64,000 nt of DNA, taken from positions 1,538,927-1,602,926 of the forward strand of contig MU053513.1 in assembly GCA_013239625.1 (NCBI GenBank). The letters run 5' to 3'. The stretch is from Lama guanicoe. Taxonomy: Eukaryota. The notes beneath the pieces are model-generated. The model did not search any database. It saw only the letters and a program-made list of their open reading frames with translations, and had not been told where the DNA came from. The translations under genes were made by a program, and so were the position numbers. Of the stretch, positions 220 to 52,590 are shown piece by piece; position 1 is the stretch's first letter, and each line of letters starts with the position of its first letter.

Positions 220-1890
220 TAAACAACCTAACCTACTATCTAAAAGAATTCAAAAAAAAAAAAAAACAAACCTAAAGTCAGCAGAAGGAAGGAAATAAAG
301 ATCAGAAAGGAAATAAAAGAGATTAATAATAGAAAAAAATCAATAAAGCCAACAGCTGTTTTTGTTTTTTTTTTTTTTTGAAATGATAAGCAAAAGCAAC
401 AAGAAACTTCTGGCCAGGCTTACCAAGAAGAAAACAGAAAAGAACCAAATAAACAAAATAAGAAATGAAAGAAGAGAAATAATAACCAATACTGAAAAAT
501 ACAAAACACCGTAAGAGAATACTATGAACAATTATATGCCAACAGACTGGACAACCTAGAAGAAATGGACAAGCTTCTGGAAATGTACAGTCCACCAAAA
601 CTGAATCAAGCAGAAATAGATAATTTGAGCAGACCAGTAACTGCAAGTGAAATAGAAGCTAATTAAAATAACAACAAGCTTTCTGCAGACAAAGTTCAGA
701 AGCCCAGGACTAGCCGGCTTCAGTGGGGGATTCTCCAAAAAAGAACTTATACCAGTCCTTCTCAAACTCTTCCAAAAGACTGAAGAGGAGAGAACACTCA
801 CAGAGTCATTCTCTGAAACCACCATCATTCTGCTCTCAAACCAGACAAAGAACAACCTACAGAAAGGGAGACAATATTCGCAAACAATGTAACCAACAAA
901 GACTTACTTTCTAAAATATACAAACGGCCCATACAACTCAGTATCAAAGAAAAACACAACCCAGTCAAAAAATGGGCAAAAGTTCTAAATAGACATTTCT
1001 CCAAAGAAGGCATACAGATGGCTAGCAGGCACAAGAAAAGATGCTTAACATCACTAATTATCAGAGAAATGCAAATCAAAACTATAATGACGTATCACCT
1101 CACACCAGTCAGAATGGCCATCATCAAAAAGTCCACAAACAATAAATGCTGGAGAGGGTGTGGAGAAAAGGGAACCCTCCTACACTATTGGTGGGAATGT
1201 AAATTGGTGCAGCCACTATGGAAAACAGTATGGAGGTTCCTTAAAAAAACTGAAAATAGAATTACCGTATGATCCAGCAGTCCCACTCCTGGACATATAT
1301 CCACAGAAAATTCTAATTTGAAAAGACACATGTACCCCAGTGTTCATAGTAGCGGTATTTACAATACCAAGAGATGGAAGCAACCTAAATGTCCATCAAC
1401 AGATAATTTGATAAAGAAGTTGTGGTGTATATATACACACAATAGAATACTACTCAGCCATAAAAAGAGAATGAAACAATGCTATCTGCAGGAACGTGGA
1501 TGGACATAGGGATTATCATACTAAATGAAGTAAGTCAGACAAAGACAACTATCATATGATATCACTTATATGTTGAATCTAAAATATGATACAAATGAAC
1601 TTATTTACAAAACAGAAACTGACTCACAGACATAGAAAACTTAGTTACCAAAGGGGAAAGAGGGTGGGGAGGGATAAATTAGGAATTTGGGATTAGCAGA
1701 CACAAACTACTATATATAAAAACAGATAAACAAGAAGTTTCCTAGCATAGGAAACTATATTCAACATCTTGCAATAACCTATAATGAAAAAGAATGTGAA
1801 AAAGAATACATGTACATGTAACTGAATCACTCTGCTGTACATCAGGAACTAACACTGTAAATCAACTATTCTTTAATTTTTAGGAAAAAA
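220..1890 (+). mobile_element. L1 fragment (ORF2 pieces plus 3' UTR) with internal deletion
   Basis: ORF 1018-1272 is the L1 ORF2 C-terminus ([49 protein letters not shown]). 220-850 matches the ORF2 region between endonuclease and RT. A typical 3' UTR follows. Confidence 0.92.
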
Positions 1891-6418: not shown

Positions 6419-6793
6419 TGTATTCGTTTTCTAGGGCTGCTGTAACAAAGGACCAACTGGCTTAAACACAAAAACTTACTACCTTAATTACGGAGGCTGG
6501 AAGTCCATTATCAAGCTGTCACCAGGGTTACTTTCCTCTGAGCCCTCTCTCCTTGGCTTGCAGGTGGCTGTCTTCATGTTCACATGGCACTCTCCCTCCC
6601 TATGGCTCCATTGTCCAAATTTCCTCTTATAAATACATCAGTCATATTGGACCAGGGAGCCACCCTAATGACCTCATTTTAACTTAACTACCTCTTTAAA
6701 GATTCTATCTCGAAATATAGTCCCATTCTGAGGGACTAGAGATGAGTCGACTTCAACATATGAATTTTAGGGGGCATACTTCAGTCCATAACA
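6419..6793 (-). mobile_element. MLT1B/C-like MaLR solo LTR
   Basis: TG...CA termini. The reverse complement starts TGTTATGGACTGAA..CCCCCTAAAATTCATATGTTGAA. 5-bp TSD GTGTC/GCATC, consistent with CpG decay of GCGTC. Confidence 0.85.
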
Positions 6794-8669
6794 GCATCTG
6801 ACACCTAGCAGAAAAAAAAAAAATAAAAAGACTAGACACCCAAAGCTAGTTGACAATACCCTCCTCCCTCCACATTCATTCTGATACACCCAGCCTGAAC
6901 GCATCATGCATGACTAGAGTCAGGTTCAAAGTCAAGAGAAAACTAACACTTCTCTGCCTAAAGAACAAGGTATAACACCTTAGAGAAATGGTAAAATGGA
7001 TATCTGCCTTCTCCTACCCAAAAGGAATCTTCCCTCACGTCATGGTTCTGTGTGATTTTGGTTGGCCTATCGTGTAGCCTGCCTTCCCACGACCAAGAAG
7101 GACATGACCTAATCAGTCCGCCACCCCATCCCAGGAATTTGAATTCTACATGGAGTAACATGAAGATAGGAAATAATTGGAGAAAGTCAATTAAACCAGT
7201 ACCATGAAGGGTTCCTGGTTCACACATCCCTGAAACAGCTTTGCTTCCTATTGGTACAAGGCTTGACTGAATTGTCTTTGTTTCTGAGACCTACCTGATA
7301 GTCCTTCCCAAGAAATGCCTTTTCCTTAAATTAGACAGTGCTTATTCTGTAGCTCTCAAAGAATCTTGGCACGTACAGTGGCCCCTCGAAGTGGGATGTG
7401 GGTAGTGACCCACAATGTGGGAACAGAGCAGGCAGTAAGGATTCCATCATCGATGGCTGGGGAGCCACGCTCATCACCCTTGTCAACGCTGGTGCAAAGC
7501 CGCCAACAACACCACTCCCTCCGGTATCTGGGGACACTGTCTACACGCCTCCCCAGGTTAAATACTTAGGGAAGTTGGTAGGACAATGTCAAAATCCTAG
7601 AGTGTGTAGCCATTTCTCACAGCTTTTGGTACAATCCCAGAAATAACTCAGCTTCAGCCAAGATGGCCTATCTGAGTACAAGGAGAAAGCTCTGCCTCAC
7701 GCAGAATGGCCCTTCCTCCTGGTAGGATGCCAAGACGACAGAGTCAGATAATCATGAAGGACTTTAAATTTGAATTAAGGCACCAGTGAAAATGCTAGAA
7801 AAACAAGAAGGAAGGAAACACAGCAAAAGGTAAGATTGAGATGGAGATAAAGGGGCCAAGCCTGGTCCCCCAAGTATCTCCTGATGTACCTACACTCCCT
7901 CCCTGGCAAAGAGCTAAGTGCTGGAATGAGGCCACAGGATAGCAATGTCTTTATCCTTCAGGCAAAAAAATAAGCAGGGCCAGAGGCAAAGATCAACCCA
8001 CAGGGTGGAAAATGCATATGGACCAGCAGATTTAATCTGGGTTAAGTTGAGTTAAGCTGCCATTGAAACCTTGGAAAATAAAAACTTGTCACTGCTCCAA
8101 AATCAATCTTCAGGTATCCGGACCCACAGCACCACCAGAATGTGAGATGCTGAAATAACATACGCCTATTAGGAAAATCCTACTCATCGTCCATCTCAAT
8201 TCTACCCACGGAATTCAGATGTGGTAACAGACAGCGGCTTCAGGAGTCACAGGCACATAAGGCAGAGAAGTACACCAAACGTCAACACGTATGTCTCAAA
8301 TGCTGAAGGAAAACATTTAATCATGCAATAATAGCTAAGTACAATGACCTCTGTAACATCCAATTCTATCACCAACCTAACATCCATGTTAAGGTGTATC
8401 AGCAACATTCTACAGAAACACAGGGACCACACGATGTATATGCAGACGAGGGAAAATAGAGAGAGATTAACTTTGGAAAACAGATTATATGGTGGGGACA
8501 AGTGTAGAAAGAAATTATTTTCCTTGAGTTGTACTAAGAATAACTCTGATTTACAAAGAGCCTAAATCAAATAATATTTATCTCGAACTGTCTACGTCCT
8601 ATTAATTTATATGCTATGATACCCAGGAAGTTGGTTACCAAACAAAGCCGTTTCAAAAGGAACTGCTTA

Positions 8670-10152: not shown

Positions 10153-10333
10153 CAAAGGCTTTCTTGGGTTCTATTAACTTCATGGTAAAGAGTTCCTCTT
10201 TTTTCAGTTCCTTTAACTTCTTCGCAACATCAAAGTGGCGCCACCCAACGATGTTTTCTCCGTTGATGGATTCAATGTGATCCCCGACACAGACTGTTTT
10301 CACTGAGTCAATTATGCTGCCATCTTTAATTCT
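10153..10333 (-). CDS. GIPC2: GIPC2 coding exon 3 (181 nt; remainder of PDZ domain)
   Basis: RIKDGSIIDSVKTVCVGDHIESINGENIVGWRHFDVAKKLKELKKEELFTMKLIEPKKAF plus 1 nt. Acceptor TTTCAG|AGA and donor TTTG|GTAAGT, phase 1. Confidence 0.97.
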
Positions 10334-10924: not shown

Positions 10925-11058
10925 GGGGGAGGGAATAGCTCAAGGGGTAGAGCGCATGCTTAGCAAGCATGAGGTCCTGGGTTCAATGTCCAGCACCTCC
11001 TGTAAAAAAAAAACAATCAATCAATCAAATTACCTCCCCTCCACCAAAAGAAATTTAA
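10925..11058 (+). mobile_element. vic-1-type SINE
   Basis: GGGGGAGGGAATAGCTCAAGGGGTAGAGCGCATGCTTAGC...GGTTCAA. Degenerate TSD AAGCATAAAGCT/AAGAATAAAGCT. Confidence 0.88.
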
Positions 11059-13278: not shown

Positions 13279-13675
13279 CTTTTTTTATTGAAGTACAGTT
13301 GATTTACAATATTGTATTAGTTTCTGGTGTACAGCATAGTGATTCAGTTATGCATATTCTTTTTCATATTCTTTCTCATTATAGGTTATTACAAGATATT
13401 GAATCCCTGTGCTATACAGTAGGACCTGTTGTCAATTTTATATATACTATAGTTTGTATCTGCTAAAGCCAAACTCCTCTAATTTATCCCTTTCCACTCC
13501 TTTTCCCCTTTGGTAACTATAAGCTTGTTTTCTATGTCTGTGAATCTGTTTCTCTTTTGTAAATAAGTTCATTTGTATCATTTTTTAGATTCCACATAAG
13601 TGATATCATGATATTTGTCGTTCTCTCCTTGACTTCACTTAGAAGGATCATCTCTAGGTCCACCCATGTTACTGC
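13279..13675 (-). mobile_element. 5'-truncated L1 3' end (sense to GIPC2)
   Basis: TTTTTTTATTGAAGTACAGTTGATTTACAATATTG...TCTCTAGGTCCACCCATGTT. Degenerate TSD CAGTTTTCATTTCTT/CGGTTTTTGTTTCTT. Confidence 0.9.
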
Positions 13676-13750
13676 GGTTTTTGTTTCTTAATTGCATAGT
13701 ATAAGCCCTTATTTTTATTTTGTTTCTAAAAGCATGCTCTTTTCTTAAAC

Positions 13751-14083
13751 TAGGGATCAGCAAACAATGGTTCATAGGTCAGATCTGGCCCATCACTGTT
13801 TTCATTATAGCCGTGAGTTATGAATGGTTTTACCTTTTCAAATGGTTTGGGGACAAAAAAGAATATCTGTGACATGTGAAAGTTATATAAATTCAAATTA
13901 CAATGTCCATAAATAAGGCTTTTCTAGAAGACATCTATGTTCATCATTTCAGCATCGTATATAACTTTTTGTGCTACAAAGGCTGAGTTGAGTAGTTACA
14001 ACAGAGACTGTATGACCATAAATTAGAACAAAATCTAAACTATTTACTATCTGGCCTTTTATAGAAAATATGTACCAACTCTG
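13751..14083. mobile_element. MER58-like hAT/Charlie DNA transposon
   Basis: Terminus TAGGGATCAGCAAAC, end ACTATCTGGCCTTTTATAGAAAATATGTACCAACTCTG, and TCTTAAA on both flanks. Confidence 0.75.
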
Positions 14084-14644
14084 ATCTTAAAACTATTTCA
14101 GGAATTTATGGAGTTTGTTATAAGTATACTCTGAATTTTCTGGTTAGTTATTTATACATTTTTTCCTGGGAAATGCTAAAACCTGGGTAGTAAAATCATA
14201 TATGTTTGTCTGTTGTCTTTGATATGTGAAGGCCAGGCAGTACTAGTTAATACATTTCCCTGCCATTGACCTCATCTCCTAATTATGTGATGATTTGTTA
14301 TTATTGCTACCATGAAGGTATTAGCTATCAGTTACTAGTATTATCAAACATTTCAGATACATCATTAGTTTGTACCCAAATAATTCTGTAAAGTAAGTGC
14401 TAATATTCCCATTTGAGAGAAGGCTTAGAAAGGTTTAAGGACTTGACCAAGGTCAACAGCAAGTAAATAAGGGGCTGAACCAAGACTGAAAGTAGGTGTG
14501 ATTCTAAAGCCCATGGTCCTATGCGCCACACGGCACTGCCTTCCTAATCATGGACTCCTTCCTCCTCACCCTTGTCTAAACACGCACCACACTGTCCTCT
14601 TCCATAAATCTACTGACTTCCAGCCACTGCTAAAAGCGTATCAA

Positions 14645-14750
14645 GTACTTGCTTCAGTAGCACATACACTAAAATTGGAGCCACACAGAGAAGATTAGCA
14701 TGGCCCCCTAACAAGGATGACGTGCAAACTCTGGGAACATTCCACTTTTT
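14645..14750 (+). pseudogene. U6 snRNA retropseudogene (full length, ~80% identical to U6)
   Basis: GTACTTGCTTCAGTAGCACATACACTAAAATTGGAGCCACACAGAGAAGATTAGCATGGCCCC...CAAGGATGACGTGCAAA...TTCCACTTTTT aligns ungapped to U6, with about 22 mismatches in 106 nt by hand. ACAGAGA box at 14685-14691. Confidence 0.95.
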
Positions 14751-17003
14751 ATGCTTATCTTGGCAAAAAGCATTGGAATAGTAAGCCAGATATTAATGAA
14801 ATTGATTACTTCAAGGAGTGGGAGAAATGAGTAATGGGGACAGAGAAGGAGTGGCATCTCTGTATATATCTTTTATTATAGTTTTGACTTTTCAAACTAT
14901 TATGTATTCAGAAAATAAAATTAAATCAACATGAGAGGTAAAACTCAAAGTCAATTCAAAGAGAAATAACTGGATTCAATAGTTATTTTAAATGAGAAAT
15001 CATGGGATGGAGGGAGGAGGGGCAAGTGAGAACCTACCCCAAGTACCTCCTGAAGAGAATGCTTGGATTGTATACATGCATTTAAAGACAAAAAAAAAAA
15101 TGCATACAAATCTTGAACTCTTAATAGATTTATTTCTCCAACTATAGATACAGCAATTCTGAAACTATTTTATGTATATTGTAAAACTAAGAAAATGATT
15201 AAATATTCCAATCATTCTGAAAGTTAATACTTTAGTAGAAAAGCCAAGGAAGAACCCTGTGGGGCAGGATTAGAATTAGAGGCATAATTATGAATTCATA
15301 ATTTCTAAGATACATGTTTTCTATTAAGCGAAGCAAGTCAGACAGAGAAAGACAAATATCATATGATACCACTTATATGTGGAATCTTTTAAAAAATGAT
15401 ACAAATTTTATTTACAAACCAAAAGTAGACTGACAGACACAGAAAACAAACAATGGTTACCAAAGGAGAAAAGGTGGGGGAGGGATAAATTAGGAGTTTG
15501 CAATTAACAAATATGCATTACTATGTATAAAACAGATAAACAACAAACACCTACTATATAGCATAGGGAACTATATTCAATTTCTTGCAATAACATATAA
15601 TGAAAAAGAATCTGGAAAAGATATATATGTAGGTATATGTGTATATAACTGAATCGCTTTGCTGTACACCTGAAACTAACATTGTAAATCAACTACACTT
15701 CAATAAAAAAAACAATTTTTTTTAATTTTAAAAATAAAATACGTGTTTTCTAACACTTTCAGCGGTAATTGAAAGCACCTAGAAGCAGTGACACTCTGGT
15801 AGCAATGAACGTGTGCAACTAGCATTCAGGTATCGATTTTGAAATTACACATCCTCACTGAAAAAAACCAGAGCTCCTCGAAGAAATGGCTGATTCCAAG
15901 CCTGGGAACAAAAAGATGAAAGATGAACTTAGAACATGCCAGAAAGGAAGGAATTGCTCAATAAAGTAATGGGAGTCAGGTCAAAGAAATACAGGAGCCA
16001 GCTGAAAGGGACTCCTGCCCGCTGAATCTCAGGAAATCTGAGCATCAAAACAAATAATGGTAATGGGCCTGCTGAATAAGAAATCATGTGTTCATGTTGA
16101 TAATAGATAATATATAGGCAGAGTGTTTTATTACAATGGAATGTCTTCTAAAAATACATGGGAAATGATGGAATTAGAAATACCACCATTTTGCAACCAT
16201 TATAGTAAAAACTGAGTCACAGGCAAGACTCCTCAATAGATGCTGAATTTGTGGGGTGCAAGTAAGAGAACAGGATATTTACATAATTTCAAAGTATCTT
16301 CCCACAAATTACTAATTACAAAGGAAAATATACAAACGTTGCAGTGAGCTAAGACTGGCAGACACTACCTTACCCAAGCGACCAAAATTAACGTCACGAA
16401 TAATGAGACAAACCAAGATACCACACTTTCTGAGATAAGAAGCACATAACATCGCTTATCTAGTTTTCTTGCCAAAAATGTACAACCTGAAAAAAAAAAT
16501 GTATGGCCTGTTTCTCAACAGGAAGAGACATCAAAAAAGCCAAAAATGAGGGATATCCTCTAAAAGACTGAGGAACTGTTCCAGAAAAAAGACAACTAAA
16601 AAGACTTGATAACTAAATAATAATACTGGACTGGACTTATATCAGGAAAAACTATAAGGACAACTCATAAAACTGCCACATGGACATTAGATTAGTTTGA
16701 AAGTATTCTATCACTGTTAGGGTTCCTGAGTTTCATAGCTGTACTGTGGGTGTACTTCAGAGAATATCTTTGTTCTTAAAAACTACATTCTGAAGTGTTA
16801 AGGGATAAAGAGACATAATATATGCAATCCCTTTTCCAGTCGCTCAGGGGAAATTACACGTATGTATATGTCAGTAAGAGAATAAAGCCAATGTAGCAAA
16901 TGGTAAAAACTGGATTTTTTTGAGTAAGGGGTACTATGTGAGTTCTTTGTGTTATTACAATCTGTCAATAAGTTTGAAATTTATTCCTCTCTCAATTTTT
17001 AAA
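14751..17003 (+). mobile_element. Old L1 (L1MC3/L1MC4-like) 3' region fused to the U6 copy
   Basis: Recognisable L1MC-type 3' UTR motifs (e.g. GAAATGGCTGATTCCAAG, TTATAGTTTTGACTTTTC), an A-rich end at ~17001, and a TSD shared with the U6 copy. Confidence 0.75.
15324..15735 (+). mobile_element. Younger 5'-truncated L1 3' end nested in the U6/L1 chimera
   Basis: AAGTCAGACAGAGAAAGACAAATATCATATGAT...TGTAAATCAACTACACTTCAATAAAAAAA. TSD AAGATACATGTTTTCTA (15307-15323) / AAAATACGTGTTTTCTA (15736-15752). Confidence 0.9.
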
Positions 17004-18246
17004 AAAATCATATCAACCATGTACACAGTATGATAAGTCATTCCTCTTCAAAGTTGAACTCTTATCAGAGGTTTGGCTTAGGCTCCTCTTCCTCTTTGCC
17101 ACCATGTTCTCTGTCTCCACAGGGCCAGTGACTCGTACTCTGAAGCAGGCACATGTTTGACGGGGCATAAAAAAATAGAATCACAAGCTCTGAACATCAG
17201 AGGCTAAGATCTCAAAAAGCCATGCGTGTTTGCAAAACTTCCAAGCCCTTCCCTGCTGACATTAGAAAGGCATTGCTACACGGGCCTCATGTCCTGAGCT
17301 TCCCCTGGATAATCCCACATGACTCTCTCAACTGGCAGATTTTCCATTTGGTCACCCACTCAACCTTCAGCACAGTCATATCTTTTGCAGAGCTAAAAAT
17401 AGCCATTCTATCAAGTGGGAAGTTAAAGCACTACTTACAGTTAAGAAGATAACTGCCCTAAGGCTATTTTTTTTAATGATGACAATGCATCAGCAAATCA
17501 AGGATTTGGACAAAATAAAGCATGAAATGTGCTCTGTTGCATGAAGTTTATTGCTAATTCTTCGCTCAGGGGGTAGTATTGCCAGCTCTGGAGTCAGACC
17601 TCTTGGATTCAAATCCTGAATTTGTCCAGCTGCCTAACATTGGACAAGCCGCTTAACGTTCCTAATGCTGTTTCTACATCTGTAAAAGGAAAGGTTGATA
17701 ATAGTTCCCACCCAGAGATGAACCTCCCAGACATGCTGAACAAAAGCCAGAAACAGCAGAGGTCATAATAAATTAACTCCATTGATATGAAATTCGAGAA
17801 CAGGCAAAACCATAGTGATAAAGGTCAAAATAGTGGTTACCCTTGTGGGGGAGAGGTATTGACTGAGAAGGGGCACAAAGGAGCATTCTGGATGGTGGAA
17901 ATGAAATTTCCCTTGACCTGCGTGGCATTTACACAGATCTGTAAATATTCCAGCCATACATTAAAGATCTGTTACACCTCAACAAAAAAGTAAATAAGAA
18001 GAAAGCATGGTACCAACTACAACTGTTGTGAGCATTAAACGAGGAAGTGTATATGCAAAGGGCATAGTACATGATCAGCATTCAATAAGTCAGTGTATTG
18101 CAACTATTTATTACAGTAATAGAATTGATATTTGAGATGAACCTTTTTACCACTCCTCAGTTCTTAAAGTTTTTCATACCATTTCAAACTTCCTTCTCTT
18201 GTCTTTGCAGCTCTATATTGCTCTTTGTATTCAGATAAAAGAATTA

Positions 18247-19268
18247 CAGTTGGCCCTTGAACAATGCAGCAGTTAGGAGTGCTGACCCTCCACATAGTGG
18301 AAAATCCTCCTTAAAAAAATTCCACCTTACATGTAGTTTGGTGCAGCCATTATGAAAAACAGTATGGAGATTCCTCAAAAAACTAAAAACAGACCTACCA
18401 TATGATCCAGCAATCCAAGTTCTGGGTATATACCTGGAGGGAACTCTTAATTCAAAAACATACATGCACCCCAATGTTCATAGCAGCACTATTTACAATA
18501 GCCAAGCCATGGAAGTAACCTAAATGTCCATCGACAGATGACTGGATAAAGAAGATGTGGTATATTTATACAATGGAATACTACTCAGCCATAAATAAGA
18601 ATAAAATAATGCCATTTGCAGCAACATGGATGCGCCTGGAGAATGTCATTCCAAGTGAAGTAAGCCAGAAAGAGAAAGAAATATACCATATGATATCACT
18701 CATATGTGGAATGTAAAAAAAAAAAAAAGGACACTATGAACTTATCTACAAAACAGAACAGACTCGCAGACATAGTAAACAATCTTATGGTCACCGGGGA
18801 AAGGGGGTGGGAAGGGATAAATTTGAGAGTTTGAGATTTACAAATGTTAGCCACTATATACAAAAATAGATTTTTAAAAAGTTTCTTCTGTATAGCACAG
18901 GGAACTATGTTCAACATCTTACAGTAACCTTTAATGGAAAAGAATATGAAAACGAATATATGTATATATATGCATGACTGGGACATTATGCTGTACACCA
19001 GAAACTGACACATTGTAAATGACTATACTTCAATTTTTAAAAATTGTTTTAAATTTAATACTAATTAAGATCCCATAATAAAAAGGCAATGTCCTTAAAA
19101 ATGAAAAAAAAAAATCCCACCCTATAATCGGTTCCCCATATCTACAGTTCCACATCTGCAGATTCAACCAACCACGGATTATGTCATACTGTAGCATTTA
19201 CTATTGAAAAAGATCCACATGCAAGTGAACCCACACAGTTCAAACTCATGTTGTTCAAAGATCAACCA
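18247..19268. mobile_element. Tigger2a-like MITE interrupted by an L1
   Basis: TA|CAGTTGGCCCTTGAACAA ... TTGTTCAAAGATCAACCA|TA terminal inverted repeats with TA duplication. Confidence 0.8.
18330..19113 (+). mobile_element. L1 3' end nested in the Tigger element
   Basis: TTTGGTGCAGCCATTATGAAAAACAGTATGGAGATTCCTCAAAAAACTAAAA...3' UTR. Approximate TSD AAAAAAATTCCACCT/AAAAAAATCCCACCCT. Confidence 0.9.
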
Positions 19269-19682: not shown

Positions 19683-19868
19683 CTTTATAAAAGCGTAGCC
19701 GGCACCATTATCTGTAATGGTGATACCAAGTGAATCTTCAGACTTAAACACATTCACTTCTTTTTTGATCCCTTTCACATGGGCAAATATGAAATCTTCA
19801 AGGCCTATTTGTGTTCCTAAGAGTTTATCCATGTCAACTTTAGGTGTGTTTAAAGTGCAATATAAGAT
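19683..19868 (-). CDS. GIPC2: GIPC2 coding exon 2 (186 nt; GH1 end and PDZ start)
   Basis: [62 protein letters not shown]. Polypyrimidine tract plus TTGCAG| acceptor and AAG|GTAAGT donor. Phase 0-0, in frame with exons 1 and 3. Confidence 0.97.
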
Positions 19869-22052: not shown

Positions 22053-22593
22053 ACTACTCAGCCATAAAAACCGACAACATAACGCCATTTGCAGCAACAT
22101 GGATGCTCCTGGAGAATGTCATTCTAAGCGAAGTAAGCCAGAAAGAGAGAGAAAAATACCATACGAGATCGCTGATATGTGGACTCTAAAAAAAAAAAAA
22201 AAAAACAGAAAAACAAAGCATAAATAAAAAACAGAAATAGACTCATAGACACAGAATACGAACTTGTGGTTGCCGAGGGGGCGGAGGGTGGGAAGGGATA
22301 GACGGGATTTCAAAACTGTAGACTAGATAAACAAGATTATACTGTATAGCACAGGGAAATATACACAAGCTCTTACGGTAGCTCACAGAGAAAAAAATGT
22401 GACAATGAATATATATATGTTCATGTATAACTGAAAAATTGTGTTCTACACTGGAATTTGACACAACATTGTAAAATGATTATAAATCAATAAAAAATGT
22501 TTAAAAAAAAATAAGGTGCAGTATCCTCCAACATACAACTGACTGAAACATTGTAGTAGCTAAAGAAAATAAAATACTGTCAAAATTAAAAAA
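22053..22593 (+). mobile_element. Young L1 3' end with probable 3' transduction
   Basis: L1 3' UTR retaining many CpGs. Perfect TSD AAAAACCTAT at 22043-22052 and 22594-22603. Two AATAAA/poly(A) ends. Confidence 0.9.
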
Positions 22594-23526: not shown

Positions 23527-23660
23527 GGGGGGAGGCTATACTCAGCAGTAGAGCACATGCTTAGCATACACGAGGGCCTGGGTTCAATCCCCAGTGCCTC
23601 CTCTGAAAAAAACAAATAAATAAACCTAATTACCTACCCCCCAAAAAAAAACTTTAAAAA
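23527..23660 (+). mobile_element. vic-1-type SINE
   Basis: GGGGGGAGGCTATACTCAGCAGTAGAGCACATGCTTAGC...GGTTCAATCCCCAG plus tail module. TSD ending ACTAGATAA on both sides. Confidence 0.9.
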
Positions 23661-33930: not shown

Positions 33931-34507
33931 AGATGCACTGCAACATTCACAGCATAGTTATTTACAACTGCCAAGATATGGAAGCAACCTAAGTGTCTAT
34001 CAACAGATAAATGGATAAAGGAGATATGGTATACATAGATACATACAATGGAATACTACCCAGCCATAAAAAAAGAATGAAATTTTGCCATTTGCAGTAA
34101 CATGGATGAATCTGGAGGGTATTATGCTAAGTGAAATAAGTCAGACAGAGAACAGCAAATACTGTATGATATCACTTTTACATGGACTCTAAAAAATAAA
34201 CCTACTGAATATAAAAAAAAGTGAATGTATTAAGAAAAAAAAAAAAGACTCATGGATACAGAGAACAAACTAGTGGTTACCAGTGGGGAGAGGAAAGGTG
34301 GAGGAACAAGATAAGGGTAGAGGATTAAGAGGTATAAACTATTATGTATAAAATAAGCTATAAGGACATACTGTATAATGCAGAGAATATAGTCCATATT
34401 TTAGAATAACTATACATGGAATATAACCTTTAAAAATTGTAAATCACTATGTTGTATACCTGAGACTTATTACACTATACATCAGCTGTACCTCACTTTT
34501 TTAAAAA
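33931..34507 (+). mobile_element. 5'-truncated L1 3' end
   Basis: GCCAAGATATGGAAGCAACCTAAGTGTCTATCAACAGATAAATGGATAAAG... TSD AAGGAACACCTTT/AATGAATACCTTT. Confidence 0.9.
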
Positions 34508-36276
34508 AATGAATACCTTTGGTTACCTCAGGTGATTGGAGGTTTATAATAAGGAGACACAGGAAAGCCAAAGAACCATGGGAAACATTTTCAAAAGACA
34601 AAGACTTCTTAGAAATTATTAAAAACTGGTTCATTGACATTAAAGACACTATGAGCTCTCCTGGCATGAAGGACGCTTTGGTGGCCCTCTGTCACCCTGT
34701 CAGGGCCCCAGTCACTCTGCCTTCCCCTGGCTTCATAGTTTTTTCCCTTAGGTCCACTTCTTTGCTTCTGCCACTACCAACTGTGCAGAACAGATACACA
34801 GTATGCTCCTGATGGGGTCAAAAGAAAAGCAGAAAAGGGGGTTGTACCCACAAAGATATGCGTGTACTCTCACACATAAACACACACACTTATGCATTCA
34901 TAAATTTTATTTTTCTGGAAGGACGGTCAAGAAAGTAGTCAAAGCAGATGCTTCTGGGGAAGAGAACTAGGGAACCGTGGTTCCGGGTGGCCTACTTTTT
35001 AAAAATATTTACTATCTACATATGTTATTTTTTTCAATTAAAATTAAAATTGGCTTTAAATAACATTTGCTACAGTAGCTCCACTGTGGACTTCTGCCTC
35101 ACAGAGAGTAATTTCTGCTAGCAGATTTAGTGACTGAATAAAACACAAAAGCACAGACACCACTTTCCTTTGGTGGCCTTTGGTCAAACATTCTGGACAC
35201 CTTCATTAACTGGGAGACAACAGGTGGAAAGGGAAAGGAGGACCTGAGAGGTGAATTAGAATTAATAACATTGAGGAGGTCAAGAGATGAGGCAGGCTGG
35301 ATTAGGAAGAGATCTCATAAACTGATTTTAGCTATTCCTGTTTATAGCTAAAAAGTTTTGAGGCAACTACATAAGAACTTGTGTGACATCACAGTCCTAA
35401 ATATCTAAGCAATATGTTTGATGTCAGAAGGGCAGAAAATTATATCTTAGCTTCTAAAATTTCATTTCAAGTTTATATTACTGTGCCTTACTGAATCAAA
35501 TTCATGGAATTCTATTTCCCAAGATTTTTATTGAGTTCAAAACACTTCATCTGCATTTTCTATTTATCTCTCATTACCCGAAGCACTATTAGCATCTAAG
35601 TCTCAGCTCTTTGTCCAGAACTTCTAACAAGAAGGAAGTAATCCCTAGATGACCGTGTAAATACACTAGCATCTCTACAATTTCAAGAATTTCTATAGTC
35701 CATCCACTTATAAGGCAGAGAGAGCTTTTGCTTACAAAGCAGAGAGAACTTCTGCTATGTTTTGTTTAGCGTTTTAGTAATGTAAAAACCAAAAACAAGA
35801 ACAAAACAAAACCAGCCTCTGATTTGAAGTTGGGTCTCTCTATTCTGGCTTGTTACTTTCCTGTACAGTTACACTTTTGCATTTGTGGAATCAAGATTAC
35901 ATGCTAGGTATATACATTGAGCAGTAAACAGACACGTGAATACTTTTGGAACTCTGTCATGATTTTCCCAACCAAGTTCTATCTCACTCTTCTTTGATCT
36001 CTGCCCACCACATCCCCATCTGCATACTTGGCATTGCTGGCATTTTTCATACTCCGCCTCGTATTACCAGCATATGTATCCTTGTTTCTCATATATCTTA
36101 GTTTACTCTTACTACCATGACTCCTATACATTGTAACACCATGAAATAGGCACTTAGTAACCTTTGTATGTATTTCAATACTTTGTACATAAAGATGATA
36201 CTCAAATATTTTTAACTGAGGGCACGAGCTCTGGAAGAACGTTCAAGCTAGAAAGGACTTTGGATCTCATTTAATC

Positions 36277-36460: not shown

Positions 36461-36720
36461 GGCTAGTGCACCTACCCCAGATCACATATGAAGAAACTGA
36501 AGCCGAGTGAGATGGGAGCCTCACCCAAAGTTGGACAGTAAAGGAACAGAACAGCAGAAAGATCAATGGAGGACAGGGATGAAATGGAAACTATCTGGCA
36601 GACATCTTCAGAATTAAATAAAAGGAAAGTATTAACTAAATAGGACACGTTACCATAGAGAACCATTTTATCACAGAATAAAACTGATGAATAGCTTTTT
36701 TTTTAATGTAGGCATTTTCA

Positions 36721-38175
36721 CATCAAAACTACGATGAGGTATCACTTCACACCAGTCAGAATGACCATCATCAAAAAAAGTCTATAAATAATAATTGCTG
36801 GAGAGGCTGTGGAGAAAAAGGAACCCTCCTACACTGTTGGTGGGAATATAAACTGGTGCAGCCACTATGGAGAACAGTATGGAGGTTCCTTAAAAAGCTA
36901 AAAATAGAGTTGCCATGTGATCCAGCAATTCCACTCTTGGACATATATCCACAAAAACTTCAATTTGAAAGGATTCCTACACCCCAGTGTTCACGGCAGC
37001 ACTATGTACAATAGCCAAGGGACTGAAGCAACCTGAATGTCCACTGACAGATGACTGGATAAAGAAGTTGTGGTATAAATATGCAAGGGAATACTACTCA
37101 GCCATAACAATGAAATAATGCCATGTGTAGCAACATGGATGGACCTGGAAATTGTCATTCTAAGTGAACTAAGTCAGAAAGAGAAAGAAAAATATCATAT
37201 GATATCACTTATATGTGGAATCTAAAAAAATGATACAAATGAACTTATTTCAAAACACACAGACTCACAGACAATAGAAACTAAATTTATGGTTACCAAA
37301 AGGGAAAGGGGTGGGGGAGGAATAAATTAGGAATTTGAGATTAACAGATACACACTACAATACATAAAACAGATAAACAACAGGGCCTACTGTATAGCAC
37401 AGGAAATTATATTCAGCATCTTGTAATAACTTATAATGGAAAAGAATCTGGAAAAGAACATATGTATATAACTGAATTACTTTGTATACATGAACCCTTA
37501 TAAATCAACTATACCTCAACTTAAAAAAAAACAAAAAATTAAAAATTAAAGAAATCATGAGGATACAACGTACAGCGTGATGACTATAGTTAATACTGTA
37601 TTGCGTATTGGAGAGTTGCTGAGAGCAGATCTTAAAAGTCCTCATCACAAGAAAAAAATTTGTAACTATGAATGGTGATAAATGTTAATTAGATTTATTG
37701 TGATCATTTCACAATGTATCAAATCATTATATTATAAACCTAAAATACGTCACTTACCTCAAAAAAGATTACATTTAAAACAATAAAAGCAGTCAAAATG
37801 AAGCTACTCTGTTTAGAAAAGCTCACCAAGCTGATCAAATTATAAAGTAAGGGATTAATTACCATAAAAGTCAGGATAGTGGTTACGCTTGGAGGGCAGG
37901 TGGGAAAGGATGTGCAGAATGTTCTAGAGCAGCTGACAAGGACTATCCTTTTTGAGGGGTGTGGTTACAAGAGGGTTCAACTTATTCATCAAGTACATTT
38001 GTTTCATGTGCTTTTCTCTACTTATAGTTAATTAAAAAATTTAATGTAGAATGAAAAGTAGAAATGTCAGTCAAAATGTTGCTAATTGTCAAAACCAAGC
38101 ACATGGGAGTTAACTGCATTGTACTTTTCACTTTTGCATGTATTTAAAATTTCCATAATAAAAAGTTTTTAAAAA
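36721..38175 (+). mobile_element. Stack of L1 3' ends (younger 36721-~37545, older L1M-type to ~38175)
   Basis: ORF2 C-terminal DNA (CACACCAGTCAGAATGACCATCATCAAAAA) plus 3' UTR and A-tail, followed by two older L1 3' UTR-type segments with A-rich ends. Confidence 0.82.
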
Positions 38176-43489: not shown

Positions 43490-43597
43490 GGGGGTGGGCA
43501 TACCTCAGTGGTAGAGCACATGCTTAGAATGCAGAGGGTCCTGGGTTCAATCCCCAGTACCTCCCATTAAAAAAGAAAAGAATACAATAAAAAAGAA
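43490..43597 (+). mobile_element. vic-1-type SINE (short form), left member of inverted pair
   Basis: GGGGGTGGGCATACCTCAGTGGTAGAGCACATGCTTAG...GGTTCAATCCCCAGTACCTCC plus A tail. Confidence 0.9.
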
Positions 43598-43611: not shown

Positions 43612-43716
43612 ATGGGGTTGTTGTTGTTGTTGTTGTTTTAATGGATGTGCTGGGGATTGAACCCAGGACCTCACGCATGCTAAGCATGTGCTCTACCAGT
43701 AAGCTATACTCCCCAC
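43612..43716 (-). mobile_element. vic-1-type SINE (short form), right member of inverted pair
   Basis: Reverse complement GGGGAGTATAGCTTACTGGTAGAGCACATGCTTAGCATGCGTGAGGTCCTGGGTTCAATCCCCAG plus (CAA)n tail. CCTGGTTT repeated at 43604 and 43722. Confidence 0.9.
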
Positions 43717-45060: not shown

Positions 45061-45215
45061 GTTTTTGTTTTTTTGTTTGTTTTGTTTTGTTGTTGTTGTT
45101 TCGGTAGGGGGGAGGTAATTAGGGTTTTTTGTCTTATCAATGAAGGTACTGGGAATTGAACCCAGGACCTCGTGCATGCTAAGCATGTGCTCTACTACTG
45201 AGCTATACCCTCCCA
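45061..45215 (-). mobile_element. vic-1-type SINE
   Basis: Reverse complement GGGAGGGTATAGCTCAGTAGTAGAGCACATGCTTAGCATGCACGAGGTCCTGGGTTCAATTCCCAG plus tail module. Confidence 0.9.
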
Positions 45216-46099
45216 CTTCATCTCTATTTCACAAATGGCTGACACTGAGAGAAGTTAAACCCGTTCAAGGTCACCCAGCTAGTTAAAACTAGTAGAACCT
45301 GGATCCACATCCAGGATATCAGTCTCCAAATCCTGTCCTTGACTACCAGCCACCTACCTGTCCTAGGGAAGATCAAAGAACATTACTCCTGCAAGGCTGC
45401 TTTTTGAATTGAAACGCTCTATACAAAGATGAACTATTATTCTTAGTACTCTATATCAACATAAAGACTTCACAGAATGGCTTTTATTTGCCTCTCAGGT
45501 GCCTGGGAACCCTGAAAGAACAAAAGGTTAGCTTCAAGCTCTCTTTTCATCTCCTCTCGGAATTTTGCCTTGACATCAGTTTCGCTTGAGAAGAACTGAT
45601 AAAGAACGTTAAAGAGTACATAGCCAAATGCCACTCTGTGCCACTGAAGGCAGCTCTCTGCACTCCCAGGAGTCCCAGGCAACAAGATCTTGTGCTTTTC
45701 CTTGAAATGTGGACAAAGCACTTTCTTGGGCTAAAATCTCACACCTGCGTTTGCAACTGCAAAAGCAGCTTGGGAAAGTATACATAATGTGGTCACGTAA
45801 AGGTCCACATAAACAAGTGCTTTGGAAGTCAGCCTACAAGACACTCCAGCTCCAGGCACGCATGCAATCGATCTAATTAAAGCAAATTTCAGTCTCTTTT
45901 CAAGGATTTGGTGTAAAATTTAGAGCTGCTTTCTCCTCTGGTCCCACGTAGCTAAAAATAACTCTTAGTTATCCATCCTTGGAATAATAAGCTTCTTAGA
46001 AGTATCGAAGTGTTGCTGGGTATGGCATATGAGTGGCAAAGTGAGGCTCGGTTTGGTATCACCTGGAAGGTACCCCCTCACCCCTCAATCCCAGAGATG

Positions 46100-47000
46100 C
46101 TCAGCGTGGCCCTCTCACCCTTGCAGAGGAAGCAGGAGAGCAAAGTCCAGATAAATGAAGGATGTTAATCTGCCGAGCCAGACCTCGACGCTGGGAAGGC
46201 GCTGACGCCGCCGACCGCGGAATCCGGGACTCGAGCCTACTCATTTGCATGAGGAAGAAGGTCGCCCCGGGGTTTCCCAGAGGCTCGGATCTCCGAGCCT
46301 GGAGAAGGCGACTTTCTCCGGTCCGGGGACTTACCTTTTCCCTCCCCAGTAAGGACCTCTCGCGCCTCCTGGGGCGCTCGCAGCGGACCCCATCCCGCTT
46401 CCGACGTGGGGATCCGGGAGGCGAGGCTCTCAACCAGTCCCAGCCAATTTAGGCCGGCGCGCCGCTTGGGAGAGGCGGCGAGAGGCTGAGCCCGAGCACC
46501 TGGCGCTTACCTCGGACGGCGAGATCTCAAACACGCCCGCGATCTTGGCGTAGAGCTCCTGGACGCTGGAGAAATCCTCCACTCTGCCCGTGGCGCTGCC
46601 GTGGGCCAGCTGCGTGTGGAAGACCAGCCTGCGGGTGGGCGCCCGGGGCTCTGGGACGCTGCCGCCAGCCGCATCCTTCTGCTTGCCCTCTACCAGCCGG
46701 GAGGTCTCCTTGGTGTTCAGTTTCTTCTTTCTGCGCAGCAGCCCCAGGGGCATCTTGCCTGGCTGAGGGCGGGGACCCACCTGCACTGCTGACCGCTGCC
46801 TCTTAGGCCTGGCCAGCAGACTTTGTGCTAAGGGCCTGCTGGCTAGGGGGCAGATGCAGCCGGGGCTGGGCCAATGGCAGAGACCTTTGTGCCTGGCCCC
46901 GCCTGGTCAGGGCCCCCTCCTCCCCTGGGAGGAGCCGCACCTGCCCGCCGAGCAACCACCTGCCCTCCCTCGGATGGATCTGGAGAAGAAAAGGTAGACC
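46100..47000 (-). promoter_or_regulatory. CpG island / proximal promoter of GIPC2
   Basis: GC- and CpG-rich block covering exon 1 in otherwise CpG-poor DNA. GC boxes (GGGCGGGG ~46767, CCCCGCC ~46897) and CCAAT at 46871-46875. Confidence 0.85.
46511..46753 (-). CDS. GIPC2: GIPC2 coding exon 1 (81 codons; N-terminus and GH1 domain start)
   Basis: Translates [23 protein letters not shown]...[41 protein letters not shown], a GIPC-family GH1 signature closest to GIPC2. ATG at 46753 has A at -3 (GGCAAGATG). Donor GAG|GTAAGC at 46511/46510, phase 0. Lies in a CpG island. Confidence 0.96.
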
Positions 47001-47001
47001 C

Positions 47002-47478
47002 TGTGGACCACGGAATGTTGCCTACCATTCCAGTTCTACAAGGATCAAGCCACCAGCCATTGCAGCTGCCTCCCATGGTGCGCCCTGAGGGGAATTCAGA
47101 ATGGAGGAAAAAAGGAAACACTGTGTGCTCTGGGTACTGGCCCTAGATAGTTAAGATGCATACCTAAGGAATAATTTCAGTGAGTTCAGACTTTTGCATC
47201 TTCCTCTAGATAGAAAAGCACTAAAATCATTGACTTGAGATACCTGTTCTTTGTGATTAGCAGTAAACTTCTGATGTTCTAATACGTGTTTTTAGCCAGA
47301 TAAAACAAAAACAAACAAACAAACAAAAACTCCCACATATCCTGGCTCCTCACTTACCTCTTTGGAGCAGTTCCTCGGAGCTGAGAGGCTGTCTCCTCGA
47401 CTATAGTTCTTAGTTTTGTCCTCAAATAAAATTTAATTTGAAACTTTCAGGTTGTGCATTTTCTTTAACCCGTTCACA
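47002..47478 (+). mobile_element. ERV1 (MER41-like) solo LTR abutting the GIPC2 promoter
   Basis: Termini TGTGGAC...GTTCACA and AATAAA near the 3' end. Inverted homology to the LTRs at 48448 and 54597 (GAGCAGTTCCTC..AGCT..GAGGCTGTCTCC..GACTATAG). No clean TSD. Confidence 0.8.
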
Positions 47479-50400
47479 CATCTCATCTCCTGGCTTCTCT
47501 CCCCTTCTTTAAAAAAATGTCTCAAATTCTGTAAAAGCCTTTGGATGCTGATTCTGTAGGACAAGACGTCTTAGAATACAAGCATGCTGGCCCTTCGGGT
47601 GATGCTGATAAATGTGTGGTAGGCGCACACGACTGGGGCACATGCCCTCATGTCTGTGCGTCTAGGCCATTGGGGATAGGAGTTTAAGTAGAGGTCAGTC
47701 TTCAGCTTACTACCCTGTAGCTTACAGTCTGCAAGACAGAATTGGAAGGAAAAGTTTTGAGATTATTGCCACATTAAATTCATAGTCAAACAGCTTCAGC
47801 CGATCCCTCAGCAACTCTCAATGATCCTTTCTACTTTTTCCTGAGCACCTTTGTCTCCCAAACATTCAGCACTCTCCCCAAGTCATTTGCTCCGCTTCTG
47901 CCCTCCTTGGTCTCTGCAGAAAACCCTGTTATTCCAGGGGAAATTGAGGCCATTCAGTGTGACTCCTGAATTCCCTCAGTTCCCCATTTTCTGTAATTTT
48001 ACCCACATCCCTTCTCCAAACTCCAAAGAAGTCTCTTTTTCATTTGACCCTTGATCGGATCTTTTCATTCCTCAAGGATCTCTATGTCTAAGCCGCCTGT
48101 TGACTTGTTTTTCTCCTCCCCACGTAGTCCCACTCACTGATGGTCAAAACCCCAAATCTCTTACATTGTTTTCAAGTCCTCCATCCATACAACCCCACAG
48201 TAACCTCTATCTTTCTCAACAAAGCAAAACAGTCTTGGATTATTAGCTGCATCTCCTCAAATCCCCCCTTGCTCTTAGACTTGCTGTGATCAGACTTTGC
48301 ACCCACACTAAACTGAAATTACTATTACTATGGGCAGCATTTAATCATCAGGTATGATCACTTTTCAGTCTTTATCTTGCATGAGCTTTTAGAGTATCTG
48401 ACTGCGCTGACAATTTTATTCTTAAATCACACCTCTGTTTTGGCTCATGCCTACTGAAATAAAAATGCACAACATGAGAACTCTGAGTCTCAGTTTTATT
48501 TAAGGACTTGCTGAATACTATAGCCCAGGAGACAGCCTCTTAGATAGCTGTGAGGAACTGCTCAGAAGAGGTAAGGGGGGAGGTCACTATGCATGCGATT
48601 TTGGCAAAGGGGGTACATGAAACCGAGTGCCCATCTCAGTAGAATGTTACTGCTAGTCCTGAGGAACACATTCCTTAGTTAATGGTTTTAATTCCTTCCA
48701 AGTGTGGAAAGATGCCAGAATTCAGATTTACAAAAAATTTCTCCTGAAAATATCTACCTATCTGAAGGTCTGTCCTTCTAGTCTTCCCAGAGCCTCATTC
48801 CTAATCTCTGTCCTGAATTTCGTCTGGGGTGTGTTAAAGGTCAGTGACTGCCGTGGGTAATAACTCAATCCCTGTAGAGCCAGATGGCGACTGATCTTCT
48901 TCAGCTGGCAGTGCCCTCTCGTGCTCATAAATTCGACCAAGGTTTGGGAGGCATTTAATGACCATTTTGTCCCACGGTGCTAGGAATGCTCATTCCCAGG
49001 TCAAGCCAGATTTCTTTGACAGGCTACTCAGTGTGCTATTACTGGACTACTGTGGTCCAGGAAAAGAGTTCTTCTTGTTGCTTCTTCCCATATCTAGAGT
49101 CACACTATTAAAGTCACTGATCTCATGTAGAACTATATATGTGGCCAATCACGTGAAGTCGCCTAGTCATCCTTTTATCAGACGCTCAGTCACACATTTG
49201 GTTATGCAAGAAACAATAATCTTGCAAAATAGGCAGGACACATGTAATATAGCTAGTAGGTCATGAGTAAGAATTTAAGCCAAGGACTGCCATTAGGTGT
49301 GGCCCAGTATATTTCCAGGTCATCACCCAGGCTGTCCCATAGTAGTTGCCATGTTTAAAGGTAATGATGTGTTGGTATTGCTCACGAGGCACCCAGCCCA
49401 ACTGCCCAGCGTTACTAGGCTTAGTATCCTTAGTAGGGTTTAATTGTTCCCTGCATACGGGAGCTTTTAAACTTAAATGATGGTAGCCTGGTTTTAACCA
49501 CACAAGTCCGTCTCATAACTGAAAGGGGTTATATTCTTTGACAGAGATTAAGCTTGTATCTCTAATTGAGCTTGAGTAACTTTAAAGAAATTCATATTTA
49601 TGGCCACGGTCAGAGCAAGTATCGTTGATTGGGCAAGTGAAGGGATAACATCCAGTAATATCAATAGTAGCCTAAACGGAACTATAACTTACTTTGTCTA
49701 GAATAAATTTCCTAAGGGCATCTAATTAGGTGAGGAGAAATCCACCAAGGTGTAGAGGTAGTAAATGTAGGTAACTGATCTTAAACCCAGCCATTGATTT
49801 CTAAACTCTGCATAGGATCATGCCCATGATAAAAAAAATTTTTTTAATTTTTGCAAAATTTCAAGAAATCAAGAAAACACTGCAAATAATCAAATGGGGC
49901 CAGGTCTGGCACCTTGGGATAGCTGTCTACTTCTGATGTTGTCTTCTTTTCCTATGGAACTGAAGTTTCTCCTCTGAGCGTTGTTTTAAGGTGAGTTTGA
50001 GTTAGCAGTCTTCTCTATAGACCAGTTCATTGCAAGGGCCCTATCTAAGTGGAAAATATGAATCCAAGAGTCACTTCTCTTCAGTTTTGCTGCACATGAG
50101 CCAGTTAAGGACCTGATAAGGGTCTTTTCGTCTAGGTTGGAGATAGCTTTTTAAATGATACCTTTTCCAGTTTACATAATCCCCTATTTGCAAGGTCATG
50201 GGGCGTCTTCTGATCTTCATCCAATGATAGATCATTATAACAAGCTTCCGAAACAAACTCAATATTCTTTTAATAATTTAATTAAACTTTACAATAACAT
50301 GGCAATGAGGAGCTATCTGGGAAGTGAGTCTTAGGCAGTAAATACAGCTCTAGAACCCAGCATCCACTGAAACAATCTTCTCTCTAAAATTACCCCCATT

Positions 50401-51543: not shown

Positions 51544-51735
51544 CATTACTATATGTAAAATAGATAAACAACAAAGACCTACTGTATAGCATAGGGAACT
51601 ACACTCAATTTCTTGTAAGAACATATAATGGGAAAGAATCTGAAAAGAAAATATATATGTATATGTATAACCGAATCCCTTTGCTATACACCTGAATCTA
51701 ACATTGTAAATCAACTACACTTCAATACACCTTTT
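51544..51735 (+). mobile_element. Short L1 3' end inserted in the provirus
   Basis: AAATAGATAAACAACAAAGACCTACTGTATAGCATAGGGAACT...TGTAAATCAACTACACTTCAAT. Degenerate TSD AAATATCCAAAAAAAGTTT/AAATACATCAAAAAGGTTT. Confidence 0.85.
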
Positions 51736-52156: not shown

Positions 52157-52590
52157 TTTTTTTTTAATTTACAATGTTGTATTAGTTTCTGGTGTACAAC
52201 ATAGTGATATAGGCATACATACATATATATACATATATATATACACACATATTCTTTTCCATTACATTGAATATAGTTCTCTGTGCTATACAATTTGTCC
52301 TTGTTGTTTTTTCTATACATAGTAGTTTGTATCAGCCAATCTCAAACTCCCAATTTATCCCTCCCTCCCTTCTTTACCCGTAAGTTTGTTTTCTATGTCT
52401 ACGAGTCTCTTTTTGTTTTGTAAATAAGCTCATTTGTGTCAATTTTTTAGACCCCACATAGAAGTGTCATATGTGGAATCTAAAAAAAAAATTATATGAT
52501 GTTTATCTTTCTCTGTCTGACTTACTTCATTTTGTATGATAATCTCTCAGTCCATCCATGTTGCTACAAATGACATTATTTTATTCTTTT
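52157..52590 (-). mobile_element. L1 3' end inserted in the provirus
   Basis: TTTACAATGTTGTATTAGTTTCTGGTGTACAACATAGTGAT...TCCATCCATGTTGCTACAAATGACATTATTTTATTCTTTT. Confidence 0.88.

What the first reader, a model, noticed from the sequence alone, without database searches (positions are those of the whole stretch)
14632..17016. Ancient U6 snRNA/L1 chimeric retro-insertion bounded by one TSD in GIPC2 intron 2
Seen: a full-length U6 copy (14645-14750) ends in TTTTT with no poly(A) and runs directly into ~2.2 kb of L1MC-like 3' sequence. The whole unit is flanked by AAAAGCGTATCAA (14632-14644) and AAAATCATATCAA (17004-17016), 11/13 identical, starting at a T/AAAA L1-endonuclease-type site. Known: U6/L1 chimeras join the U6 3' oligo-U to a 5'-truncated L1, by template switching or RtcB ligation. 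Inference: this was a single insertion event. The ~20% U6 divergence and old L1 partner would make it an unusually old chimera, possibly predating the split of the placental orders. Repeat annotation would normally list the two parts as unrelated.
Basis: partly seen in the sequence, partly recalled or inferred. Interest (0 to 1): 0.7.

Follow-up and report, generated by a model that had tools for sequence, protein, structure and literature searches.

The report
Old U6-L1 chimeric retrocopy in GIPC2
A dead copy of the spliceosomal U6 RNA, joined to the tail of what looks like a very old L1 jumping gene, was probably pasted as one piece into an intron of GIPC2; this is a known kind of accident, unusual only in its likely age, which is not proven here.

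Summary
The anatomy is real. A full-length U6 copy (14645-14750, Rfam 77.4 bits) ends in five T, has no poly(A), and lies antisense in GIPC2 intron 2. The 13 bases before it recur at 11/13 in the A-run at 17004; only 2 of 63,988 window positions match that well. Between them is a purine-rich 1.8-kb segment (not 2.2 kb) whose blind compositional edge falls near the U6 end. A younger 411-bp L1 with its own 18-bp TSD interrupts it. No tool held a reference for the 1.8-kb segment, so its reading as an L1MC4-type 3' UTR rests on my recall, and no orthologue could be examined. The U6 clock is weaker than claimed: 19% overall, but 14% outside CpG, not separable from the nested L1. Best reading (0.8): one L1-driven insertion of a U6/L1 chimera. 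Pre-placental age is about 0.5. Old partners are already catalogued: 14 of 180 human U6 chimeras have L1MB-ME partners. None is listed with L1MC3-5, and none lies at human GIPC2. New member of a known kind; low interest.

The parts
14632..14644 (+). 5' copy of the 13-bp target-site duplication; begins at a CT/AAAA L1-endonuclease-type site and abuts the first base of U6
14645..14750 (+). full-length U6 snRNA retrocopy ending in T5, no poly(A); 20 of 106 differences from a metazoan-type U6 (13 of 94 outside CpG)
14751..15323 (+). first part of the host element: A/purine-rich, non-coding; read as 5'-truncated old L1 3' UTR of L1MC4 type (subfamily by recall only)
   Evidence: composition and change point; no ORF2 remnant by tblastn; family assignment not tool-tested
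15306..15323 (+). 5' copy of the 18-bp TSD of the nested L1 (16/18 identical to 15735-15752)
   Evidence: (D13)
15324..15734 (+). nested younger L1 3' end: last 22 codons of ORF2, 3' UTR, A/T-rich tail; 8 paralogues in the window; 9.8-13.5% from the majority of its relatives
   Evidence: paralogue's ORF2 end matches human L1 ORF2p residues 1235-1273
15735..15752 (+). 3' copy of the nested L1's TSD
15753..17003 (+). second part of the host element, running to its A-run (17001-17007); read as the rest of the old L1 3' UTR (by recall)
   Evidence: family assignment not tool-tested
17004..17016 (+). 3' copy of the 13-bp TSD (11/13), overlapping the A-run
19683..19868 (-). GIPC2 exon 2 (upstream border of the host intron)
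10154..10333 (-). GIPC2 exon 3, the 60 codons examined (downstream border of the host intron)

Best explanation
14632-17016 is one dead retrotransposition product. In a germ-line cell of an early mammal, L1 ORF2p nicked a CT/AAAA site in GIPC2 intron 2 and copied, by target-primed reverse transcription, about 1.8 kb of an L1 3' end and then a complete U6 snRNA. The two were joined at U6's 3' oligo-U, either as RNA beforehand (RtcB ligation of the U6 cyclic phosphate to a cleaved L1 5'-OH) or by a template switch. Repair duplicated 13 bp. Later a younger L1 3' end inserted at 15324 with its own 18-bp TSD, and the poly(A) tail eroded to a few A. The copy has no Pol III promoter and is antisense to GIPC2, so it is most likely inert. 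Shown: U6, T5 end, TSD pair, nested L1, intron position. Inferred: single event, L1 identity of the 1.8-kb segment. Recalled: L1MC4-type subfamily. Taken from the literature, and not separable by sequence: ligation versus template switch (I lean to ligation, about 60:40, on Moldovan's biochemistry).
For: Full-length U6 with T5 and no A tract fits the hallmark list of genomic U6/L1 pseudogenes: full-length U6, 5-7 T, 5'-truncated L1, 6-19-bp TSD, EN site (PMC6789731). The TSD abuts U6 exactly and its best match within 14745-17400 is 17004-register for every length from 7 to 18, alone or tied; 0 of 226 other A-runs reach 11/13; 7 of the 9 bases after the A4 match, p 0.0015 for one register. A blind two-change-point scan puts the start of a purine/A-rich block at 14765 (support 14630-14910), and 0 of 100 block shuffles reach its score; a second L1 inserted inside it. 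No TATA-like box in the 200 bases upstream, so not a U6 gene. By eye, the segment resembles my memory of the L1MC4-type 3'-end consensus in collinear blocks from the first base after the T-run to the A-run (recalled, not tested).
Against: No tool could show that the 1.8-kb segment is L1. Without an independently fixed 3' end, an 11/13 match somewhere in the next 2.6 kb has about an 8% chance (my arithmetic). The compositional 3' edge is broad (16624-16984) and stops 20 bases short of the TSD. The 11 bases right after U6 match the upstream flank at 7/11 (p 0.015 for one register), a weak rival TSD. U6 outside CpG is no more diverged than the nested L1 at this sample size. If each TSD copy were 25% diverged, 11/13 or better has probability 0.05 (0.15 at 19%). 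The locus is not among the human chimeras of Law and Burns.
Confidence: 0.8

Rival explanations
1. Two sequential insertions at one re-used endonuclease site. The old L1 inserted first and made the 13-bp TSD; a U6 retrocopy later inserted at the same CT/AAAA site, and its own tail and 3' TSD copy decayed into 14751-14761.
For: 14751-14761 matches the upstream flank at 7/11 in register with the U6 end. U6 outside CpG is only 13.8% diverged, like the nested young L1.
Against: Stand-alone full-length U6 retrocopies carry a poly(A) tail (PMC4476161 section 7) and none is here. All four mismatches of the rival copy are transversions and its leading A-run is missing. By recall these bases are ordinary L1 3' UTR.
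Confidence: 0.1
2. Chance juxtaposition. U6 and the downstream segment are unrelated (the segment is another repeat or several fragments, perhaps joined by an old deletion), and the 13-mer match is a coincidence.
For: No tool-based identification of the segment (and the collection searches). About 8% chance of such a match within 2.6 kb if the end is free; 8 window positions match the downstream 13-mer at 11/13.
Against: The match sits in an A-run at the end of a compositionally coherent block that starts at the U6 end. It leaves a full-length, tail-less U6 without promoter or TSD unexplained.
Confidence: 0.07
3. A decayed genuine U6 gene or DNA-level duplicate into whose 3' flank an L1 later inserted.
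For: Full length with a T5 end that would also be a Pol III terminator.
Against: No TATA-like box upstream and only one CTCACC hexamer as a PSE-like hit. The L1's TSD lies 5' of U6, not between U6 and L1.
Confidence: 0.03

Closest known systems
U6/LINE-1 chimeric pseudogenes of mammals (Doucet et al. 2015, PMC4476161; Moldovan et al. 2019, PMC6789731; Buzdin 2002/2003 and Garcia-Perez 2007 seen only as citations)
   Same: Full-length U6 ending in a T-run, same-sense 5'-truncated partner, one TSD of 6-19 bp, L1 endonuclease-type site, often intronic.
   Different: Far more decayed than the copies Doucet analysed (97.5% identity cut-off); partner appears to be 3' UTR only and is interrupted by a later L1.
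Old human U6/L1M chimeras in the TiMEstamp catalogue (Law and Burns 2026, PMC13174262, Table S2): 8 L1MB, 2 L1MC (MC1, MC2), 3 L1MD, 1 L1ME1 of 180; also U4/L1MC5a and 5S/L1MC3
   Same: Same architecture with partners active at time points 8-11; L1ME1 is assigned to time point 11, as L1MC4 is (Table S1).
   Different: No U6 row has an L1MC3, 4 or 5 partner; none of the 15 chr1 U6 rows of Tables S2 and S3 lies between 75.2 and 88.8 Mb, where GIPC2 is; the U6 sheets give no TSDs.
U6/L2, U6/RTE and U6/SINE chimeras of platypus and Anolis (PMC4476161 section 10)
   Same: U6 joined to the 5' end of a truncated LINE.
   Different: Other LINE clades, often truncated U6. They show that U6 capture is a general LINE property, which lowers the surprise of an old L1 example.

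Membership tests
U6/L1 chimeric pseudogene | full-length U6 copy | tested here: met
   Rfam model positions 1-105 of 105
U6/L1 chimeric pseudogene | U6 ends in about 4-8 T and joins the partner with no poly(A) or spacer | tested here: met
   T5 at 14746-14750, then mixed sequence; range from PMC6789731
U6/L1 chimeric pseudogene | partner is a 5'-truncated L1 in the same orientation | tested here: inconclusive
   purine/A-rich + strand block starting near the U6 end, but no reference sequence or paralogue found; L1MC4-type by recall only
U6/L1 chimeric pseudogene | one TSD of 6-19 bp encloses both parts | tested here: met
   13 bp, 11/13; 0 of 226 other A-runs match as well; weight depends on the L1 end being at 17003
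U6/L1 chimeric pseudogene | insertion at an L1 endonuclease consensus site | tested here: met
   CT/AAAA at 14630-14635; Law and Burns score CT/AAGA-type sites as EN motifs
U6/L1 chimeric pseudogene | poly(A) tail at the L1 3' end | tested here: inconclusive
   A7 at 17001-17007, four of them in the TSD; nearest AATAAA at 16881
U6/L1 chimeric pseudogene | both parts arrive together in orthologous alignments (empty site has one TSD copy) | not testable with these tools
   no genome held; no sequencing run listed
L1MC4-type (time point 11) LINE-1 | 3' UTR aligns best, and collinearly, to the L1MC4/4a/5 consensus | not testable with these tools
   no Dfam/Repbase library available; resemblance recalled
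L1MC4-type (time point 11) LINE-1 | locus shared with Afrotheria and Xenarthra | not testable with these tools
   no orthologue available; time point from Table S1 of PMC13174262
functional U6 snRNA gene | upstream TATA box and PSE; near-invariant sequence | tested here: not met
   no TATA-like box in 14445-14644; 8 of 59 columns invariant in 13 eukaryote U6 genes are changed

The most novel reading that the evidence does not exclude
A U6/L1MC4-type chimera that inserted before the placental orders split, still shows its TSD, and is missing from the largest published human catalogue. It would be among the oldest well-preserved U6/L1 junctions, the first listed with that subfamily, direct evidence that joining at the U6 oligo-U operated in stem placentals, and a sign that searches anchored on other mammals would recover old chimeras that human-anchored pipelines miss.
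Probability: 0.5. Interest if true: 0.36.

Novelty: new member of a known kind. Interest (0 to 1): 0.25.

Why it matters
If the age holds, it is a well-preserved fossil of U6 capture by L1 from before the placental radiation and a possible presence/absence marker, and it would add a subfamily to the catalogue. It opens no new mechanism: one DNA junction cannot tell RNA ligation from template switching, chimeras with equally old partners are already listed, and U6 capture is known from other LINE clades. Nothing points to a function.

Tried and rejected
Own genome: none held. Search for relatives of the 1.8-kb segment: window by blastn, nhmmer and Smith-Waterman tiles (the best hit, 16582-16617 against 6809-6844, is an A-rich 36-46-base match of no weight); viral contigs; metagenome contigs (35 loci, none extends much beyond the seed); GTDB contigs; plasmids and phages (no match); L1 ORF2 relatives in viral contigs (none confirmed); three window motifs in paper texts (0 papers). 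Rfam at E up to 10 found only U6 above noise. No ORF2 remnant in the host segment, as expected for a 3' UTR but not proof. Pfam found nothing for the ORF2 C-terminal pieces; PDB did. Orthologues: one search for public runs with GIPC2 exon 3 and the word PACBIO listed none; that is no evidence, and no reads were laid. A human U6 pseudogene name that I recall inside GIPC2 (RNU6-1102P) gave 0 papers; GIPC2 with RNU6 gave 6 listed papers, of which two were opened by passage and showed no link; one paper's supplement could not be read. Moldovan's supplement has no GIPC2, L1MB, L1MC or L1ME. Rival TSDs at 14751 (7/11) and 14763 (11/16) were considered and ranked lower. U6 divergence as a stand-alone clock was rejected.

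Full report
Setting. The window is mammalian DNA carrying GIPC2 on the minus strand. Exon 1 is in the ORF at 46430-46906, exon 2 ends at 19683 before a GT donor, and exon 3 starts at 10333 after an AG acceptor. Exon 3 matches the human GIPC2 PDZ chain at E 1e-33, against 4e-17 for GIPC1; exon 2 matches GIPC1 and GIPC2 chains. The flagged element therefore lies in intron 2, antisense to the gene. The tRNA-headed repeats of the window (7 Rfam tRNA hits) look to me like a camelid SINE; that is recalled and comes from no call.

U6. Rfam RF00026 matches 14645-14751 over model positions 1-105 at 77.4 bits. The copy ends in T5 (14746-14750) with no A tract. There is no TATA-like box in the 200 bases upstream. 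For a reference I fetched 15 loci holding the U6 core from GTDB contigs, 13 distinct. The closest, L037, differs at 20 of 106 positions (K2P 0.22). 7 of these are at CpG sites; outside CpG it is 13 of 94 (13.8%, CI 7.6-22.5%, K2P 0.16). Four differences cluster at 14708-14711 and may be fewer events. L037 is a eukaryotic contaminant, not the host's U6, so the figures are approximate.

Target-site duplication. The 13 bases abutting the 5' end of U6 recur at 17004-17016 with 11 identities, one CpG transition and one transversion; the site is CT/AAAA. Of 63,988 + strand positions, 2 besides the source reach 11/13, and for flank lengths 7 to 18 the 17004 register is the best or tied-best match in 14745-17400. 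0 of 226 other A-runs of five or more reach 11/13. After the four A, 7 of 9 bases match, p 0.0015 for one register. Against this: if the 3' end is not fixed independently, such a match within 2.6 kb has about an 8% chance (my arithmetic), and the downstream 13-mer has 8 matches at 11/13 in the window. A rival copy directly after U6 (14751-14761) scores 7/11, p 0.015, with four transversions. Under decay of 15, 19 or 25% per copy, 11/13 or better has probability 0.28, 0.15 or 0.05, so the TSD is plausible for an old insertion but better kept than expected at the oldest end.

Nested L1. 15324-15734 has 8 paralogues in the window, begins with an open stretch of 22 codons ending in a stop, and a paralogue's corresponding peptide matches the last 39 residues of human L1 ORF2p (the ORF at 817-1269 matches ORF2p at E 1e-56). 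It is flanked by an 18-bp TSD, 16/18 identical. It differs from its four closest relatives by 17-19% pairwise, and from the majority of relatives by 33 of 338 (8 copies) or 44 of 325 (3 copies) positions. The host is necessarily older than this insert. The host segment is thus 573 + 1,251 = 1,824 bases, not 2.2 kb.

Host segment. It is A- and purine-rich on the + strand (purines 0.55-0.59 against 0.47-0.49 in both flanks). A blind two-change-point scan of 13660-17800, nested insert skipped, put the 5' edge at 14765 (support 14630-14910) and the 3' edge at 16704 (support 16624-16984); 0 of 100 block shuffles reached the score. The 5' edge agrees with the U6 end; the 3' interval stops 20 bases short of the TSD. 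It has no ORF2 remnant. I could find no relative of it in the window or in any collection, no genome is held, and no sequencing run was listed. By eye it resembles my memory of the L1MC4-type 3'-end consensus in collinear blocks, from the first base after the T-run, across the nested insert, to the A-run at 17001.

Mechanism. The anatomy equals the hallmarks given for genomic U6/L1 pseudogenes: full-length U6 ending in 5-7 T, 5'-truncated L1, 6-19-bp TSD, endonuclease site (PMC6789731, passages). Two routes are in print: template switching (PMC4476161, section 6) and RtcB ligation before reverse transcription (PMC6789731, abstract and discussion part 1). A DNA junction cannot separate them. 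Stand-alone full-length U6 copies are described with poly(A) tails (PMC4476161, section 7), which this copy lacks. I put the single-event reading at 0.8, re-use of the site by a later U6 at 0.1, chance at 0.07 and a dead U6 gene at 0.03.

Age. Outside CpG, U6 is not significantly more diverged than the nested L1 (Fisher p 0.26 and 1.0; with CpG 0.016 and 0.21), so U6 alone does not date the event. L1MC4, 4a, 5 and 5a are placed at time point 11 and L1MC3 at 10-11 (PMC13174262 Table S1); from the text and Figure 2, I read time point 11 as present in all placentals and absent in marsupials. If the recalled subfamily and the single event are both right, pre-placental age follows; I put that at about 0.5.

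What is known. Law and Burns list 180 human U6/L1 chimeras, most from time points 8-6. A text search of their Table S2 gave 14 of 180 U6 rows with old partners: 8 L1MB, L1MC1, L1MC2, 3 L1MD (two with matching fragment sizes, perhaps duplicates) and L1ME1; also U4/L1MC5a and 5S/L1MC3. Table S3 adds L1MB8 and L1M4 among 23 U6 rows. No U6 row names L1MC3, 4 or 5. None of the 11 + 4 chr1 rows lies between 75.2 and 88.8 Mb, and GIPC2 is near 78 Mb. So this locus is not in that catalogue; it may be lost, split or unannotated in human, which I could not check. Doucet et al. found U6/repeat chimeras in nearly all mammals surveyed (6 in alpaca) and U6 chimeras with L2 and RTE in platypus and lizard, using only copies at 97.5% identity (sections 9 and 10). 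Seen: Law and Burns preprint (results parts 1-2 of 3, discussion part 1, figure legends part 1), journal version (passages; Table S1; Table S2 parts 1-3 of 5 plus searches; Table S3 parts 1 and 3 of 3 plus a search; one supplementary PDF too large to read); Doucet (abstract, sections 6, 7, 9, 10; supplements not read); Moldovan (abstract, discussion part 1, passages, supplement search); Repbase review PMC5753468 (one passage). Buzdin 2002/2003, Garcia-Perez 2007 and Hasnaoui 2009 were seen only as citations and may list old copies. Searches for prior mention of this locus; none found.

Earlier notes of this scan report other snRNA/LINE chimeras as ordinary, one in this genome; I did not test them and they are not support.

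Verdict. Observation partly confirmed; interpretation partly supported. A probable old member of a known class, with subfamily and age untested. Interest 0.25; 0.36 if the pre-placental reading holds.

Noticed in passing
window 15306-15752: Younger L1 3' end nested in the host element, starting with the last 22 codons of ORF2 and bounded by an 18-bp TSD (16/18).
   Followed up: yes
window 817-1880, 13280-13640 (-), 18300-19060, 22120-22500, 34120-34510, 36710-37530, 51520-51730, 52160-52530 (-): Eight further copies of the same broad L1 3'-end family, 17-31% from the nested copy; several subfamilies seem present, and 51520-51730 is close to the nested copy over only about 210 bases.
   Followed up: partly
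window 10929-11001, 23531-23602, 43494-43565, 43642-43713, 45141-45212, 53915-53986, 55718-55788: Seven tRNA-like Rfam hits, probably heads of one SINE family (camelid-type by recall); 43494-43565 (+) and 43642-43713 (-) form a close inverted pair.
   Followed up: no
window 46430-46906 (-): ORF holding GIPC2 exon 1 in a GC-rich stretch (46001-48000 is 54% GC).
   Followed up: partly
window 6500-6795: Sequence that looks like the end of an MLT1-type LTR (recalled, not tested).
   Followed up: no
L036-L050: Fifteen loci in contigs filed under bacterial MAGs in GTDB carry eukaryotic U6 genes, i.e. eukaryotic contamination; three lie on one 14.8-kb contig (L039, L049, L050).
   Followed up: partly
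window 14708-14711: Four adjacent U6 differences after the C-run; may be one C gain plus CpG decay rather than four substitutions.
   Followed up: no
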